Notes under the pieces: generated by a model
Database searches by the model: none
What the model was told of the DNA's origin: nothing
Seen by the model: only the letters and a program-made list of their open reading frames with translations
Program-made: the position numbers and the translations under genes
Part shown: positions 47,341 to 55,245 of the stretch, piece by piece
How positions within the stretch are numbered: position 1 is the stretch's first letter
Layout: every line of letters starts with the position of its first letter
NCBI RefSeq assembly: GCF_000026545.1
Contig: NC_011601.1
Reading direction: 5' to 3' (one strand)
From: Escherichia coli O127:H6 str. E2348/69
Lineage (GTDB): Bacteria > Pseudomonadota > Gammaproteobacteria > Enterobacterales > Enterobacteriaceae
DNA: 64,000 nucleotides

Positions 47341-47958
47341 CTTAATCCGCGCCACTATGACAGTCTCCACAACAGAGGGGCGTTTTCTTATGCCATTGCT
47401 TAATGATTAACTCAATTTCTGGAACCTCTATTAATACCATCGTCTTCGGTGCAACTTTTTGCCGAACATTTTTCTGCTGAGAGGTTATAACACTGCTGGT
47501 GCGCCTTGTTGAGCTGATGGGCCTCGCGGCCACATCTTGCTGCCTGCTCGTAAGAATATGCAATCAAGCAGCAGAGAAACATAAGAGATTGCCCCCAGGA
47601 AATAAGCTCTAAATTTACCTTTGAGTTCATCGCAACAGCGCTGATAGTACTGGGGAATACCGATTCGACAGGAACAAGTCCGAAGAGGTTGGGGCATCTG
47701 CGTGGAAATTTGGAAGCGCTGCTCATAGCCCCCGATCATCAAGGCCGAGGGAGGTGAAGATATCAAAAAACATTATCCAGTTAGCAGCAATGCCGCTCCG
47801 CTTAAGTGGACGGCATTGCGCTACAGAAGATAAATATGTAATTACTTACTTTTCTTAATATGAAACACAAAAAAAACGATATACATTTGATTTTAAATTA
47901 TTTTATAACAACCTCCTTTCCACTGGGTACACCCTTGTGTACACATAAAATTGACACT

Positions 47959-48558
47959 TTATCGATTTTTTGCTTGTTTTTTGCTCCATGCCAAAATCTC
48001 TGCGGCATCAAACATTACTCGCCTCTCACCCATCTTAACTGGTTTTGGAAAATCGGGTCTCATCTTCCATCGCTGTAATGTGCTTTTGCTAACAGCAAGA
48101 AAATCGGCTACCTTTTGCACACTCACATATCCTTGGCTTGGAAAATCAGAGCTGTTGACATCATTCTCCCGTTCTATCCTTGCCTCTTCATGAAAACCAG
48201 CCTTCTTTGAAGGTATTTTAAGCGGTCTCTCCCGCGCTTTATCTTTTACAGAGTAAGACTCGATCCTGAGCTTTTTGTGTATCTTAAGAGGAGGTTTTTT
48301 GGCTGGTGGCTCAGGCGTCGGTTCTGGTGGTAAATAGTAATAGTAAGCCCTCACTAAATCTTCTGGTGTCAGTACACCGTAACTCATTGTTTCACGATCC
48401 GGGCGTAGTTCCAGTACCCCAAATCTAAACAACTTGTCCATTTCTGCGCTTGTTATTTCGAAGTGTTCTGACTGCTGCCCCCGAAGCTGGTAAGTTAACG
48501 CTTCTCTGGCTTCTTCAATATCATATTCGGGATGAGGAAAATGTGGTTTGCGAATCAT
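47959..48558 (-). CDS. AlpA-type HTH protein with ~130-aa N-terminal extension (199 aa)
   Basis: C-terminal VSVQKVADFLAVSKSTLQRWKMRPDFPKPVKMGERRVMFDAAEILAW is AlpA/Xis-like; N-terminal region Pro/Lys-rich, unassigned. Confidence 0.5.
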   Translation of the reverse strand: MIRKPHFPHPEYDIEEAREALTYQLRGQQSEHFEITSAEMDKLFRFGVLELRPDRETMSYGVLTPEDLVRAYYYYLPPEPTPEPPAKKPPLKIHKKLRIESYSVKDKARERPLKIPSKKAGFHEEARIERENDVNSSDFPSQGYVSVQKVADFLAVSKSTLQRWKMRPDFPKPVKMGERRVMFDAAEILAWSKKQAKNR

Positions 48559-48662
48559 CTAACTACCTAAACATCTACCCAAGAATTAATGCAAAAGTAA
48601 ACAATATCATATACAATATAAATGGTAAGTAGTTACCTAATTATTGGAGTAAGAAATTACAT

Positions 48663-48839
48663 ATGGATATGACCATGCAGGAATTACGGGCTACTCTAAA
48701 CCTATCCCCCAACTATCCTGAAGAAAACCACTTTCTAGATGATAATCTAACGGAAGAACTCGATAATGAGGAAATTCGACAACATCTGGGAATAGATTCG
48801 GATTGGATGGATGCAGTGGACACTAGCCAGATAATTTGA
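48663..48839 (+). CDS. Small highly acidic ORF (58 aa), not in ORF track
   Basis: Manual translation MDMTMQELRATLNLSPNYPEENHFLDDNLTEELDNEEIRQHLGIDSDWMDAVDTSQII; GGAG upstream. Confidence 0.25.
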   Translation: MDMTMQELRATLNLSPNYPEENHFLDDNLTEELDNEEIRQHLGIDSDWMDAVDTSQII

Positions 48840-49020
48840 ATCCTAACTAACAAAAACGCTGTCTGCCCTCTGTAGATTGGCGCTCTGTAGTGTTTGTCTT
48901 GCTTGCTTTTGACACCAAGTCGCCTGTAACTATGATCACGGGCAGGCATGAGCAAACAGATAACATAAAAGTCTATTATGGGAAGTGATTCAAGAAATCA
49001 TGGTAATTCATAGATAACTA

Positions 49021-49059
49021 AAATAGAATAATAGCCCAAATCAAACTTGATGAGGGCTA
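49021..49059 (-). terminator. Possible terminator downstream of the two-gene cassette
   Basis: TAGCCC/GGGCTA stem (16-nt loop) with T-rich minus-strand tail. Confidence 0.3.
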
Positions 49060-49064
49060 TATTT

Positions 49065-49724
49065 TTAGTAATTGAATGATGTGCCATTCCCGTTAGTTAG
49101 ACTTTTTATGCTTTTTCTGAGGAATGGGTGTGTCATAAAACCGTTGACTCTCACACCGTAGACTGATAGAAAATTTTGGCATATAGGTATCAATTTTTTG
49201 CTATCATCCTTTGATGATTTTAAATCAATAAGTGTTGATATGTCTTGGTGTGTTATTAATTCTGTTGAAAACTTAAGCGCCAAGCTTTCTTTTGCGAAAA
49301 TTGGCGCTCGCATTTCTGCACTGAGTGATATAAGAATTGTCCTTACGCACCATGATATCCTTTTATTCATTAAGAATTTGTTTTGAATGTTATTGTTTTC
49401 AGCACATATAAAATGCAATAATTTTGTTGCAGTATCAATATCATCTGAATAATTTTCTTTGTATTTAAATGATGATGATATGCTTTCAAATAGCTCCTCG
49501 TTAAATATTGGCAAGCCCTCTTCCTTCAAGTGCAAGGCAAATAAACTCCCACCTTCCATTATTTTCTTCGCCAATGCAACAGGATACATTGCTATATTTA
49601 ACTTTCCTTTCACAATCATTTTGTAATGTAGGCCATCGTATATAGCAAACATATCCACATCAGATGCCTCAGTTTGATCTCCACGAGCAGTGCTTCCATA
49701 AATAACCAAAGATTTAATATCCAT
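49065..49724 (-). CDS. Minimal nucleotidyltransferase (pol-beta superfamily) with C-terminal helical domain (219 aa)
   Basis: GS-x10-DVD motif (LVIYGSTARGDQTEASDVDMFAIY); start 1 nt after upstream stop; ~30% GC. Confidence 0.6.
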   Translation of the reverse strand: MDIKSLVIYGSTARGDQTEASDVDMFAIYDGLHYKMIVKGKLNIAMYPVALAKKIMEGGSLFALHLKEEGLPIFNEELFESISSSFKYKENYSDDIDTATKLLHFICAENNNIQNKFLMNKRISWCVRTILISLSAEMRAPIFAKESLALKFSTELITHQDISTLIDLKSSKDDSKKLIPICQNFLSVYGVRVNGFMTHPFLRKSIKSLTNGNGTSFNY

Positions 49725-53432: not shown

Positions 53433-53439
53433 TTGCCCC

Positions 53440-53622
53440 TTACAGAAACCGGGCTGCGAATTGGTCGAGATCTGCAACCAACCATACTCTGCGCTTTCTG
53501 CCGTTGATAGACTGGACGGTGCAAGTCGGAAAAGCTGGAATGTAACGCTTATATTGGTAAAAGCGTGATAGACAAACGCCAAGATATTGCGCGGATTCTC
53601 GCGCGGTAAGGTAATTTTCCAT
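53440..53622 (-). CDS. Small AlpA/Xis-like HTH protein (60 aa)
   Basis: LTARESAQYLGVCLSRFYQYKR HTH-like segment; sits between int and rep. Confidence 0.45.
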   Translation of the reverse strand: MENYLTARESAQYLGVCLSRFYQYKRYIPAFPTCTVQSINGRKRRVWLVADLDQFAARFL

Positions 53623-53824
53623 AATAACGATCCATGTTTATGTTTTGTCCACATTATGGGGCATCCTGCCCCATAAATACTGTACATAATTTTTTCAATT
53701 ATCCCAAGTCTACAACCAAAAAATCTCCCGCGTAGCAATCCCTATAGTTCGCCCTTGTTCTGTTTCAATTTCATATACGCTAGCTCCACACAAGCTGTAT
53801 CGCCACCATAATTTCGATCTCCGG

Positions 53825-55087
53825 CTAATTACAGTTACTATATTTTTTCATGGGGACGACGTTGTAATCTTCACCACTTTCCAGCGTAACCAGCAGTTCA
53901 GCCCACTGCTCCAATGCAGCTTTTCTCTCTTCAAAATAGTGGTGGCGATTATAAATACCTTCAACACCGGGTATTTTATGATTAAGACATCTTTCAGCTA
54001 TTACAGGATCAATCCCCAATGCTGCCATCTGGGTACGCATCGTACGTCGTAAGTCATGAATGCTAAATGGCTCAACATCAGGCATCTCTTTTAATACTGA
54101 AGGCAAAACCATATTCAGCGTACTGCGACTAACGTGCGATGTAGTCCTCCCCCTCCTTGCCGGAATTAACCAGCGGCTATTACCAGCAAACAGACGGATT
54201 TCCTTGATCCATTCGATAACAGGATCAGCTAGCGGGATGTCTATCTCCTCACCATTTTTTGCTCGATCAGCAGGAAAATGCCAAACTTTTTCATCAAGAT
54301 TAAACTCCGACCACTCGGCAGCGCATAATTCCATCTTGCGAACCCCTAGCGCGAGAATGATTTTAAACGTTAACTCATTCTCTCTGCTAATACCCCGCCC
54401 CTTACGCAGAGCTTTAAAAAACATTACTAGCTCCTCACGCGTGAGTGCTCGCTTACGCCCTTGCTCTTTCCCGCCTGCATCTTTTGAACTAAATGAAATC
54501 GCGGGGTTTACTTCAATCATCCCGCGTACAACAGCATAATCAAAAAGGCGCTTAAGCATTCTTAGCACGTCATTCGCAACGGTAGGAGAACCGCGCTCTA
54601 ATACATTCTGCAAAACATAGTCGATATGTTTCGGGCGTACATCCTCAATTTTCATTTTGCCGATAGATGCGACAATGTTTTTTTGTAAGCTACTGCGAAA
54701 TAACTCCGGATGCTTGTAAGTGGGTTCTATCTGCCGCGAGTAATACTCAGCGGCTAAATCTGATACTCGTTTTGCGTTCTTTTGCGCTTCAATCTTTTCC
54801 AATGCTTCAGCTTTTCGCTTCTGTTTCTCTCCTGCTACGTCATAACCAAGAGAAACACGGGCTGCCAGTTCTCTGGCGACCTCTCTTGCTTTTGCAAGAG
54901 AGAAATCAGTATACGAACCAATCAGCACAACTCGCGATTTTCCGCCTAACTTGTAACGAAAGCGCCAGTTAGGGAGTTTGTCACTTTTCCTAAATCGAAG
55001 ATAAAGCCCGTTTCCGTCTGCCTTACCTTCGAATCTCTCATCGGATTTAATCCAAGCTTTGATTTGTAGGTCAGTTAATTTTGCCAT
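53825..55087 (-). CDS. int: Tyrosine integrase (P4-type)
   Basis: MAKLTDLQIKAWIKSDERFEGKADGNGLYLRFRKSDKLPNWRFRYK arm-binding N-terminus; HDLRRT...Y catalytic region; ATG at 55087 with GGTG RBS. Confidence 0.8.
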   Translation of the reverse strand: MAKLTDLQIKAWIKSDERFEGKADGNGLYLRFRKSDKLPNWRFRYKLGGKSRVVLIGSYTDFSLAKAREVARELAARVSLGYDVAGEKQKRKAEALEKIEAQKNAKRVSDLAAEYYSRQIEPTYKHPELFRSSLQKNIVASIGKMKIEDVRPKHIDYVLQNVLERGSPTVANDVLRMLKRLFDYAVVRGMIEVNPAISFSSKDAGGKEQGRKRALTREELVMFFKALRKGRGISRENELTFKIILALGVRKMELCAAEWSEFNLDEKVWHFPADRAKNGEEIDIPLADPVIEWIKEIRLFAGNSRWLIPARRGRTTSHVSRSTLNMVLPSVLKEMPDVEPFSIHDLRRTMRTQMAALGIDPVIAERCLNHKIPGVEGIYNRHHYFEERKAALEQWAELLVTLESGEDYNVVPMKKYSNCN

Positions 55088-55111
55088 TACGAACACCTGA
55101 ATACGTTACAT

Positions 55112-55206
55112 CGGGTACGCAAAGCCATCGTCACCGTGTACCCAATTTCTAACACCGTGTACCCAAACCGCAAGAACCTCTCTTTGGGTACACTTTTGTG
55201 TACACA
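55112..55206. promoter_or_regulatory. Cluster of GTAC-core direct and inverted repeats upstream of int
   Basis: CACCGTGTACCCAA twice (55132-55145, 55153-55166, 21-bp period); TGGGTACACttTTGTGTACACA (55185-55206), also found at 47924-47945. Confidence 0.4.
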
Positions 55207-55245
55207 ATATCTTGCATCTTTATGAACTGTTATGACAACTAGTGA

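What the first reader, a model, noticed from the sequence alone, without database searches (positions are those of the whole stretch)
47917..55218. Compact ~7.3-kb integrative element with satellite-like gene set inserted next to der
Gene set is int, small AlpA-like, a 130-aa unknown, HUH-type Rep with adjacent iterons/hairpins, ~0.8 kb non-coding, the two-gene cargo, a small acidic ORF and an AlpA-fusion gene. There are no capsid or tail genes, and a near-identical 22-bp sequence (20/22) occurs at both ends. This is the minimal architecture described for phage-inducible chromosomal islands. Integration is not at a tRNA.
Basis: partly seen in the sequence, partly recalled or inferred. Interest (0 to 1): 0.7.

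Follow-up and report, generated by a model that had tools for sequence, protein, structure and literature searches.

The report
Integrative rolling-circle element carrying Hailong
A 7.5-kb mobile element sits in the last codons of the essential gene der in E. coli E2348/69; it combines a satellite-type integrase with the replication module of small rolling-circle plasmids and a swappable anti-phage cargo (here Hailong), but nothing yet shows that it is moved by phages.

Summary
The element is real and its gene list is correct, but its ends are misplaced. Comparison with an empty site puts the junctions at a 21-bp imperfect repeat, which is the last six codons plus stop of der (47842-47862 and 55313-55333). 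Polymorphisms place the crossover inside TTTTCTT. It belongs to a set of TGGGTACAC arm-type integrase sites.

The cargo is the known Hailong system (HalA/HalB). Eighteen of 5,426 complete E. coli genomes carry the same backbone at der, with four different defence cargos.

The HUH Rep is confirmed. Together with a 60-aa HTH protein, a 131-aa winged-helix protein and a conserved origin motif (AAAGTCTTAGAAAAAAA), it forms a module shared with small Klebsiella plasmids. A Citrobacter island has the same three genes, without that motif, behind a different integrase at tRNA-Arg. The integrase is 81-83% identical to integrases of primase-encoding satellite-like islands at der.

It is not a PICI or PICMI: it has no primase and no packaging genes. 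It also has no phage homology, no virome hits and no attP junction in public contigs.

Best reading: an integrative rolling-circle, plasmid-like hitcher that shuttles defence genes. Its transfer route is unresolved. This is a new variant of a known kind and of moderate interest.

The parts
47842..47862 (.). attL core: displaced original 3' end of der (TTACTTACTTTTCTTAATATG)
   Evidence: Aligns with the der end of the empty-site strain. Sequence diverges into the element at 47863. Related elements in other genomes start at 47839.
47924..47945 (+).
   Evidence: Conserved at the same offset in L003-L005.
47959..48558 (-). p199: unknown N-terminal domain plus C-terminal AlpA/HTH_17 domain. Candidate excision or regulatory factor of the integrative form.
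   Evidence: PF05930 E=3e-8. The HTH is 37-38% identical to the small AlpA-type HTH proteins of der-site satellite-like islands. Absent from the plasmid relatives. dN/dS 0.32.
48663..48839 (+). 58-aa acidic ORF, divergent from p199
   Evidence: phrog_35119 E=5e-14. 40% identical homologue next to the AbiU/AIPR cargo on plasmid-like contig L009. dN/dS 0.18. Missing in the L005 variant.
48860..51386 (.). Variable cargo slot: the only part that differs between family members
   Evidence: Backbone homology breaks at ~48855-48860 (48671 in the L005 variant) and resumes at 51374-51387 (51545 in L005). Other members carry PDC-M43, CBASS type I, or ATPase+DUF2357+hypothetical here.
49065..49724 (-). 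halB, Hailong nucleotidyltransferase
   Evidence: NCBIfam NF051895, 187.7 bits; the curated cut-off is 190, so it falls just below.
49726..50847 (-). halA, Hailong membrane effector (pentapeptide repeats plus transmembrane region)
   Evidence: NCBIfam NF051894, 295 bits against a cut-off of 250. RefSeq names it halA.
51387..51991 (.). Conserved non-coding backbone downstream of Rep: candidate rolling-circle origin
   Evidence: 89-100% identical in all 18 family members and found nowhere else in 5,426 E. coli genomes.
51790..51806 (-). AAAGTCTTAGAAAAAAA: candidate nick/origin core
   Evidence: Exact 17-mer, or one mismatch, at the same place downstream of Rep in plasmids L007 and L008 and contig L009, whose Reps are only 28-33% identical. 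The flanking hairpin and the GAAGGGCA and CTTATA motifs are also shared. 0.01 matches expected in the window.
51833..51907 (.). Two 22-bp direct repeats, 53 bp apart, each a GC hairpin (CGCCGCCTYTGGCGGCTTTCTC): candidate Rep-binding repeats
   Evidence: The ssDNA fold has z = -5.2 and -4.3 on the two strands.
51992..52990 (-). HUH rolling-circle replication initiator (Rep)
53012..53031 (.). GC-rich hairpin between p131 and Rep
   Evidence: A hairpin occupies the same position in L007, L008, L009, L010 and L017. Its function is not determined.
53043..53435 (-). p131: winged-helix DNA-binding protein of the replication module
53440..53622 (-). alpA60: 60-aa HTH_17-like protein, first gene of the replication module
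   Evidence: HTH_17 E=0.0026. 41% identical to the ORF at the same position in plasmids L007 and L008, and 72% in Citrobacter L017. dN/dS 0.10. Not annotated in RefSeq.
53825..55087 (-). Tyrosine integrase with an arm-binding N-terminal domain
   Evidence: PF13356, PF22022 and PF00589. phrog_1 E=1e-65. 81-83% amino-acid identity to integrases of der-site satellite-like islands. dN/dS 0.08.
55133..55206 (.).
55254..55274 (-). Intrinsic terminator supplied by the element for the rebuilt der gene
   Evidence: It lies inside the element, 39 bp past the der stop codon.
55313..55333 (.). attR core: rebuilt der 3' end (TTATTTGCTTTTCTTGATATG); the stop codon and the last two codons come from the element
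   Evidence: All other E. coli genomes match only from 55313 onward.

Best explanation
This is a 7,471-bp site-specific integrative element that behaves as an integrated rolling-circle mini-plasmid carrying anti-phage defence genes.

Shown from sequence:
- A tyrosine integrase with an arm-binding domain recombined an attP core (TTATTTGC-TTTTCTT-RATRTG) with the last codons of der, exchanging strands within the 7-bp TTTTCTT.
- The element rebuilds the der 3' end and supplies a new terminator. TGGGTACAC-type arm sites sit on both arms.
- The backbone is constant in 18 E. coli genomes and in E. albertii. A central slot holds one of four defence systems; here it is Hailong.
- alpA60, p131, Rep and the origin (hairpin repeats plus AAAGTCTTAGAAAAAAA) form one module. 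The three genes and the origin motif are shared with small Klebsiella plasmids. A Citrobacter island has the three genes, without that motif, behind an unrelated integrase.

Inferred:
- Int excises the element, helped by the AlpA-domain protein p199. p199 occurs only in the integrative form.
- Rep then nicks the origin and amplifies the circle by rolling-circle replication, with alpA60 and p131 acting as DNA-binding control or origin factors.
- The element has no transfer genes, so it must hitch a ride. I lean (about 0.4) towards packaging of rolling-circle concatemers into full-size phage heads, as shown for PICMIs and marine VEIMEs.
- Conjugative mobilisation (about 0.2) and no dedicated route (about 0.3) remain open.
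For: Integration:
- Empty site and crossover signature in two different attB backgrounds.
- The same Hailong element at 99% identity lies between yfgJ and der in an ETEC strain and between sinH and der in E2348/69.
- Arm sites: 4 copies against 0.35 expected, all in the att arms, and conserved across the family.
- Arm-binding domain in Int.

Family and cargo:
- 18 of 5,426 genomes, one chromosomal copy each.
- Backbone and cargo boundaries.
- All four cargos are known or candidate defence systems.
- All six backbone ORFs are intact with dN/dS 0.08-0.32.

Replication module:
- HUH motifs, Pfam match and fold.
- Synteny and homology of alpA60-p131-Rep with small plasmids and with the Citrobacter tRNA-Arg island.
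- Conserved 17-mer and origin architecture despite about 30% Rep identity.
- Strongly structured hairpin repeats.

Precedent for concatemer packaging of small integrative elements lacking capsid genes: PMC10803314 and PMC9618062.
Against: - No excised form was seen. The attP junction is absent from JGI metagenome contigs and IMG/VR, no plasmid record holds the element, and three metagenome contigs all show the integrated form.
- No link to any phage: no DNA or Rep match in phage records or IMG/VR, and no P2 or lambda cos site.
- The origin region matches nothing else in 5,426 E. coli genomes or their plasmids, so there is no shared pac, cos or oriT of detectable length.
- The family is rare (0.3% of genomes), so these negatives are weak.
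- One copy (ETEC) is decaying, with an IS1 insertion and a frameshifted int.
- That the Rep homologue is the plasmids' replicase is inferred from the absence of any other replicase. One relative (L010) also has a sub-threshold RNAI-like hit.
Confidence: 0.6

Rival explanations
1. It is a true phage-inducible chromosomal island. A specific helper phage derepresses it through an AlpA-type switch, and it is then specifically packaged and interferes with the helper.
For: - The order int, HTH, small ORF, replicase, cargo mirrors PICMI115.
- The integrase clade and the der site are shared with primase-encoding satellite-like islands, some of which are deposited as circles.
- p199 and the acidic ORF are divergently arranged, like a switch.
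- The element carries defence cargo, as PICIs and PICMIs do.
Against: - No primase or pri-rep gene, and no terS, rpp, ppi or cpm genes.
- The replication module and origin are plasmid-type.
- alpA60 also occurs in integrase-free plasmids, so it need not be an excision inducer.
- No phage or virome matches.
Confidence: 0.15
2. It is an integrative mobilisable element that travels by conjugation. The HUH Rep (or a helper relaxase acting on a cryptic oriT) nicks the excised circle, and single-stranded DNA is exported through a co-resident plasmid's or ICE's mating apparatus.
For: - HUH Reps and relaxases share chemistry, and one relaxase class derives from rolling-circle replicases (10.64898/2026.01.13.699239).
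- Relaxase-free islands that carry only an oriT are common, and defence genes cluster near oriTs (same preprint).
- The element's relatives are plasmids.
Against: - MOB-suite types the related plasmids as non-mobilisable.
- No DNA similarity to any of 72,556 plasmids outside int and a 170-bp repeat.
- The origin region is unique to the family among E. coli genomes and their plasmids.
- The Rep family is PF23343 (the inovirus G2P type), not Rep_trans.
Confidence: 0.15
3. In E2348/69 the block is an immobile, domesticated islet. It spreads only passively, by generalised transduction or by homologous recombination of the flanks, and is kept for its defence cargo.
For: - No excised form is seen anywhere.
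- The ETEC copy has an IS1 insertion and a frameshifted int. Other copies carry IS3 or IS5 insertions.
- Prevalence is low.
Against: - In E2348/69 all backbone ORFs are intact and under purifying selection, including int and Rep.
- The att polymorphisms show clean integrase-type crossovers in at least two backgrounds.
- Four cargo variants on one backbone, and a second integrase lineage in Citrobacter, indicate an actively evolving mobile family.
Confidence: 0.08
4. It is a satellite of a filamentous phage. The G2P-type Rep makes single-stranded circles that a helper inovirus coats and extrudes.
For: The only Pfam match of Rep is the inovirus/plectrovirus ORF2/G2P domain.
Against: - The match is weak (E=1e-5).
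- The closest relatives are plasmid Reps, not phage Reps.
- No inovirus genes or packaging-signal homology were found, and there are no hits in phage records.
Confidence: 0.02

Closest known systems
PICMI (phage-inducible chromosomal minimalist islands, Vibrionaceae; PMC10803314)
   Same: - Size of about 6-7.5 kb.
- Same order: int, small HTH (AlpA), small unknown ORF, replicase, defence cargo.
- No capsid or packaging genes.
- Integration next to or into a housekeeping gene.
   Different: - The PICMI replicase is a DUF3987/DUF5906 primase; here it is an HUH rolling-circle initiator with a plasmid-type origin.
- The site is fis in PICMIs and the der 3' end here.
- The hosts are Vibrionaceae versus Escherichia.
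- Helper dependence and concatemer packaging are shown for PICMI and untested here.
Gram-negative PICIs and P4-like satellites integrated at der (for example L006, L011, L012)
   Same: - Integrase of the same clade (81-83% amino-acid identity for L006 and L011).
- L006 and L011 have the same 21-bp der core; TGGGTACAC-type arm sites were found only in L011. Neither was detected in L012, whose Int is only 61% identical.
- An AlpA-type HTH is present.
   Different: - Those islands are 12 kb or more and encode a primase-helicase, Icd-like, AntA/B and PerC proteins.
- None of these proteins is present here, and no backbone DNA is shared beyond int and att.
Small cryptic rolling-circle-type plasmids of Klebsiella (NZ_AP022186.1, NZ_CP103581.1) and plasmid-like metagenome contigs L009 and L010
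   Same: - Homologous, syntenic HTH, winged-helix and Rep genes.
- The origin 17-mer and flanking motifs are shared by L007, L008 and L009 (not found in L010).
- The acidic small ORF is shared with L009 only.
- One (L009) carries a defence gene (AbiU/AIPR).
   Different: - They carry a serine resolvase instead of a tyrosine integrase and att site.
- They lack p199.
- They are extrachromosomal.
VEIMEs (virion-encapsidated integrative mobile elements; PMC9618062)
   Same: They are small (5-17 kb) integrative elements without capsid genes, and some have plasmid-type replication genes. They were found as concatemers consistent with rolling-circle replication.
   Different: VEIMEs are defined by being found inside virions, and that evidence is lacking here. 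They come from marine taxa, and no sequence relationship to them was tested.
'Integrase-only' defence islands of E. coli (Hochhauser et al. 2023, PMC10121019)
   Same: A defence system sits next to a phage-type integrase with no recognised mobility genes, and only a subset of strains carries it.
   Different: Here the supposedly missing machinery can be named (Rep, origin, HTH proteins). The der site was not found in that paper's text or supplements.
Integrative elements with rolling-circle replicases, such as pSAM2-type AICEs of actinomycetes, and SGI1-type IMEs in the 3' end of trmE (from my own knowledge, not tested here)
   Same: They combine a tyrosine integrase with a replication initiator used after excision. 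SGI1 likewise targets the 3' end of a GTPase gene.
   Different: They are much larger, encode transfer or mobilisation functions, and have unrelated proteins and hosts.

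Membership tests
PICI (Gram-negative type) | Tyrosine integrase at one end and site-specific integration | tested here: met
PICI (Gram-negative type) | AlpA-family regulator | tested here: met
   p199 matches PF05930 at E=3e-8. alpA60 gives only a weak HTH_17 match.
PICI (Gram-negative type) | Primase or primase-helicase (pri-rep) replicase | tested here: not met
   The only replicase is an HUH Rep (PF23343). No primase was found by Pfam, PHROGs or NCBIfam.
PICI (Gram-negative type) | Genes that hijack packaging or capsid size (terS, rpp, ppi, cpm) | tested here: not met
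   No such PHROG or Pfam hits in any ORF.
PICI (Gram-negative type) | Induction, packaging and transfer by a helper phage | not testable with these tools
   Only indirect negatives are available: no phage or virome similarity.
PICMI | int + alpA + DUF3987/DUF5906 primase, co-localised (SatelliteFinder model in PMC10803314) | tested here: not met
   int and alpA are present. The primase is absent.
PICMI | Integration downstream of fis | tested here: not met
   Integrated in the der 3' end.
HUH rolling-circle replication initiators | Motif I (uuTL), HUH motif, catalytic Tyr (YxxK) | tested here: met
   YLLTL, H123-L-H125 and Y172-LT-K175 are present, and the last three motifs' key residues are near-invariant across 11 family members.
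HUH rolling-circle replication initiators | Profile match and HUH fold | tested here: met
HUH rolling-circle replication initiators | Cognate origin with a conserved nick region and hairpins | tested here: inconclusive
   A conserved 17-mer and hairpins are shared with related plasmids. The nick site itself cannot be shown in silico.
Tyrosine-recombinase integrative element | attL/attR direct repeat matching attB, with polymorphisms partitioned around a 6-8-bp overlap | tested here: met
   21-bp core. The exchange lies within TTTTCTT in both the sinH-type and K-12-type backgrounds.
Hailong defence system | HalA effector above the curated cut-off | tested here: met
   295 bits against a cut-off of 250.
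Hailong defence system | Adjacent HalB nucleotidyltransferase above the curated cut-off | tested here: inconclusive
   187.7 bits against a cut-off of 190. The match is full length (E=2e-55) and the gene is adjacent.
Integrative mobilisable element (conjugative hitcher) | Relaxase or recognisable oriT | tested here: inconclusive
   No relaxase family hit. No similarity to plasmid DNA outside int. Related plasmids are typed non-mobilisable. A novel oriT, or Rep acting as a relaxase, cannot be excluded.

The most novel reading that the evidence does not exclude
The family is a new kind of minimal enterobacterial phage satellite. It replicates by a plasmid-type rolling circle to make head-length concatemers. 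Its integrase-free relatives, the 'non-mobilisable' 5-6-kb Klebsiella plasmids with the same Rep and origin, would use the same phage-borne route. Plasmid and satellite would then be two states of one defence-shuttling replicon.
Probability: 0.25. Interest if true: 0.7.

Novelty: new variant of a known kind. Interest (0 to 1): 0.5.

Why it matters
Surveys of E. coli defence islands report many 'integrase-only' islands whose means of movement is unknown (PMC10121019). This family shows that one such island has a full, recognisable life-cycle kit hidden in 'hypothetical' genes: integrase, arm sites, a regulator, and a rolling-circle replicon with its origin.

It also shows that this kit is modular. 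The same replicon runs with a resolvase as a plasmid, with a der-specific integrase in Escherichia, and with a tRNA-Arg-specific integrase in Citrobacter. Each form carries a different defence system.

The element sits in E2348/69, a standard laboratory EPEC strain, so excision, replication and helper dependence can be tested directly. It also gives the genomic context of a natural Hailong locus.

Tried and rejected
- PADLOC 2023 did not recognise the cargo, giving only weak nucleotidyltransferase hits. NCBIfam identified it as Hailong.
- Word-indexed protein searches for Rep and p199 returned only their own clusters. The exhaustive search found just 14 Rep relatives among 1.84 billion representatives.
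- A Rep profile against PDB sequences found nothing.
- Rfam found nothing credible in the element.
- P2 cos (no match) and lambda cos (no match inside the element) are absent.
- Phage collection: no DNA match for the element and no tblastn match for Rep.
- IMG/VR: no Rep relative, no attP junction and no origin motif.
- JGI metagenomes: no attP junction. The origin motif hit three contigs, all in the integrated form. One is 7,480 bp and looked like a possible circle, but it ends in chromosomal flanks and has no terminal overlap.
- I considered that the der-like 21-mer at the left end was a chance match. I rejected this because the empty site and five other family members show it is the junction.
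- I considered that p131 might be a small terminase. Its model is a generic winged helix with no significant viral match.
- Alignment A2 was too divergent for the genome scan, so a narrower alignment was used instead.
- The E2348/69 genome paper and the Hailong paper are not in the library.
- No paper mentions the RefSeq accessions of these proteins.

Full report
**Identity of the window and check of the observation**

The region is 100% identical to the E. coli E2348/69 (EPEC O127:H6) chromosome.
- An integrase (53825-55087, -).
- A 60-aa HTH ORF, here called alpA60 (53440-53622, -).
- A ~130-aa ORF, here called p131 (53043-53435, -).
- A 332-aa Rep (51992-52990, -).
- Two cargo genes (49065-49724 and 49726-50847, -).
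- A 58-aa acidic ORF (48663-48839, +).
- A 199-aa protein, here called p199 (47959-48558, -), whose C-terminus is an AlpA domain (PF05930, E=3e-8).

PHROGs finds no structural phage genes. The 22-bp repeat is real: 47924-47945 and 55185-55206, with 20 of 22 positions matching and none expected by chance.

**The true ends**

The three-way alignment shows that the junctions are a 21-bp imperfect repeat formed by the last six codons and the stop codon of der:

| Site | Sequence | Window coordinates |
|---|---|---|
| attB (empty strain) | CTACTTAC-TTTTCTT-GATATG | not applicable |
| left copy (attL) | TTACTTAC-TTTTCTT-AATATG | 47842-47862 |
| right copy (attR) | TTATTTGC-TTTTCTT-GATATG | 55313-55333 |

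A K-12-type empty site (TTATTTAT-TTTTCTT-GATGTG) and two occupied K-12-type sites give the same partition. Bases to the left of TTTTCTT come from the chromosome in attL and from the element in attR. Bases to the right show the reverse. This is the signature of tyrosine-recombinase strand exchange within a 7-bp overlap.

The element is therefore 7,471 bp and is inserted into der, not next to it. It rebuilds the der end; in K-12-type backgrounds this changes the C-terminus from ...KKNK to ...KKSK. It also brings its own terminator (55254-55274).

They belong to a set of TGGGTACAC sites. There are four copies in the 64-kb window, all in the two att arms, against 0.35 expected. They are conserved at the same offsets in other family members. 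Int has an arm-DNA-binding domain (PF13356), so I read them as arm-type Int sites. That reading is an inference.

**The family and the cargo**

The replication region occurs in 18 of 5,426 complete E. coli genomes, always as one chromosomal copy at der. It also occurs in E. albertii.

The backbone is 91-98% identical between members. It consists of 47839 to about 48855 and of 51387 (or 51545) to 55312. Only the slot between about 48860 and 51386 varies. The slot holds one of four cargos:
- Hailong in E2348/69 and in an ETEC O6:H16 strain. HalA scores 295 bits against a cut-off of 250. HalB scores 187.7 bits, just under its cut-off of 190.
- The PADLOC candidate system PDC-M43.
- A type I CBASS system (cyclase plus a two-transmembrane effector).
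- An ATPase, a DUF2357 protein and a hypothetical protein.

Hailong is a published system. HalB makes short DNA that keeps the HalA channel closed until phage nucleases remove it (review PMC13276650).

The ETEC copy is 99% identical to the E2348/69 copy. It lies between yfgJ and der, not between sinH and der, and it carries an IS1 insertion and a frameshifted int. The same element has therefore entered different chromosomes, and some copies are decaying.

In E2348/69 all six backbone ORFs are intact. Their dN/dS against the most divergent member is 0.08-0.32.

**The replicase and its relatives**

Rep matches Pfam PF23343, the inovirus/plectrovirus ORF2/G2P rolling-circle domain (E=1.2e-5). It has the three classical motifs: YLLTL, H123-L-H125 and Y172-LT-K175. 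The His, Tyr and Lys residues are near-invariant in an alignment of 11 relatives.

The Rep family is very small, with 14 hits among 1.84 billion cluster representatives. The relatives are not in phages. They are found in 5-15-kb Klebsiella plasmids typed as non-mobilisable and with no typed replicon, and in plasmid-like metagenome contigs that carry a resolvase.

tblastn shows that the whole three-gene block alpA60-p131-Rep is homologous and syntenic in those plasmids: 41%, 37% and 28% identity in NZ_AP022186.1.

The non-coding DNA downstream of Rep is also shared. The 17-mer AAAGTCTTAGAAAAAAA (window 51806-51790 on the Rep strand) occurs exactly, or with one mismatch, 150-280 bp past Rep in three of these replicons. 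In each case a GC hairpin precedes it and GAAGGGCA and CTTATA motifs follow it, although the Reps are only about 30% identical. Such conservation of a short cis element is what a rolling-circle nick region looks like.

The two 22-bp hairpin repeats next to it (51833-51907) fold far better than shuffled sequence (z = -5.2 and -4.3). I take 51730-51910 as the candidate double-strand origin. That is an inference.

p131 models confidently (pLDDT 88) as a winged helix plus a helical hairpin. It has only generic DNA-binding matches and no viral match.

One caveat applies to the plasmid comparison. One relative (L010) also has a sub-threshold RNAI-like hit.

**A second integrative lineage, and the origin of the integrase**

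In Citrobacter sp. Awk 4, the same alpA60 (72%), p131 (58%) and Rep (32%) follow a different integrase (26% identity). That integrase sits beside tRNA-Arg(CCT), and a PDC-M68A-like nuclease lies downstream as cargo. The 17-mer origin motif was not found in that island.

In contrast, the E2348/69 integrase is 81-83% identical to integrases of islands at der in E. coli and Klebsiella. Those islands encode a P4-family primase or primase-helicase, plus Icd-like, AntA/B and PerC proteins. The Klebsiella one is deposited as a circular 'plasmid' with a der-type attP core and TGGGTACAC sites. A 12-kb E. coli circle of the same gene type (L012) has a more distant integrase (61%), and neither the core nor the arm motif was detected in it.

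The element is therefore a chimera. It has a satellite-type integration module, a plasmid-type replication module and a defence slot.

p199 is found only in the integrative Escherichia form. Its HTH domain is closer to the AlpA proteins of those satellite-like islands than alpA60 is. This makes p199, rather than alpA60, the better candidate for the excision or regulatory factor. That too is an inference.

**Is it a phage satellite?**

The architecture resembles a PICMI: int, alpA, a small ORF, a replicase and a defence gene, about 6 kb, no capsid genes (PMC10803314). Small integrative elements are known to travel as concatemers in full-size heads, which is consistent with rolling-circle replication (PMC9618062).

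The membership tests fail for both PICI and PICMI, because there is no primase and no packaging genes, and the integration site differs.

Every in-silico search for a phage link was negative:
- No nucleotide match to 50,697 phage records.
- No Rep relative in phage records or IMG/VR.
- No origin motif or attP junction in IMG/VR.
- No attP junction in JGI metagenome contigs.
- No P2 or lambda cos site.
- The origin region matches nothing outside the 18 family members in 5,426 E. coli genomes and their plasmids.

Three metagenome contigs carry the element, and all show the integrated form.

Because the family is rare, these negatives are weak. They do mean that the satellite reading rests on analogy alone. 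Conjugative mobilisation is equally untested. No relaxase or known oriT was found, and the related plasmids are typed non-mobilisable. However, relaxase-free islands carrying only an oriT are now known to be common (bioRxiv 10.64898/2026.01.13.699239).

**Verdict**

The existence of the element, its gene list and its repeat are confirmed. Its ends and its target are corrected.

It is best described as an integrative, rolling-circle, plasmid-like hitcher dedicated to carrying defence systems. I commit to the following mechanism:
1. Int-mediated excision, with p199 assisting.
2. Rep/origin rolling-circle amplification.
3. Helper-dependent transfer.

For the transfer step I lean towards phage-head packaging of concatemers (about 0.4) over conjugation (about 0.2) or no dedicated route (about 0.3).

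Hochhauser et al. (PMC10121019) described 'integrase-only' defence islands of unknown mobility. This family appears to be one such case in which the hidden machinery can now be named. I found no paper that mentions these proteins.

This is a new variant of a known kind, of moderate interest, and easy to test in a standard laboratory strain.

Noticed in passing
window 51172-51340: A ~170-bp stretch in the cargo-side non-coding DNA upstream of halA is about 75% identical to a sequence present in 2-4 intergenic copies on Rahnella and Erwinia megaplasmids. Its RNA folds are not exceptional (z = -1.7 and -0.3). It may be a small repeat element, but it remains unexplained.
   Followed up: partly
window 53440-53654: RefSeq does not annotate the conserved 60-aa HTH ORF (alpA60) in any family member. 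In E2348/69 and the ETEC strain it instead extends p131 to 203 aa across it. Homology with the plasmid ORFs favours alpA60 plus a ~130-aa p131.
   Followed up: yes
window 49065-49724: HalB scores 187.7 bits, just below the NCBIfam cut-off of 190, so RefSeq names only halA and calls its partner a generic nucleotidyltransferase.
   Followed up: yes
window 47568-47833: A frameshifted IS4-family transposase remnant lies immediately left of attL. It is also present in the empty-site strain, so it predates the insertion and is not part of the element.
   Followed up: yes
window 44904-47108 and leftwards: In E2348/69 the left flank is the sinH/sinI/adhesin cluster. In K-12-type strains yfgJ-xseA abuts der. 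The der-distal flank is therefore itself variable between strains.
   Followed up: partly
L011 (NZ_CP033626.1) and L012 (NZ_CP148430.1): Two records deposited as 'non-mobilisable plasmids' (22.9 kb, Klebsiella; 12.2 kb, E. coli) look like excised circles. The 22.9-kb record has a partly duplicated gene set. Both appear to be primase-encoding satellite-like islands, and L011 contains a der-type attP core at 7143-7163.
   Followed up: partly
L010 4078-4178: A small plasmid-like contig with a Rep homologue also has an RNAI-like match (42 bits against a gathering score of 47). It may therefore also have a ColE1-type origin.
   Followed up: no
L017 (Citrobacter sp. Awk 4) 4421-10445: A related island sits at tRNA-Arg(CCT). 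After its integrase comes a 246-aa ORF that overlaps the integrase 3' end by 8 bp, an arrangement reminiscent of the 'integrase-overlapping gene' of PICMIs. It has no family match.
   Followed up: no
window 53012-53031: A GC-rich hairpin lies between p131 and Rep. An analogous hairpin is present at the same position in all five related replicons examined. It could be an attenuator or part of the origin.
   Followed up: partly
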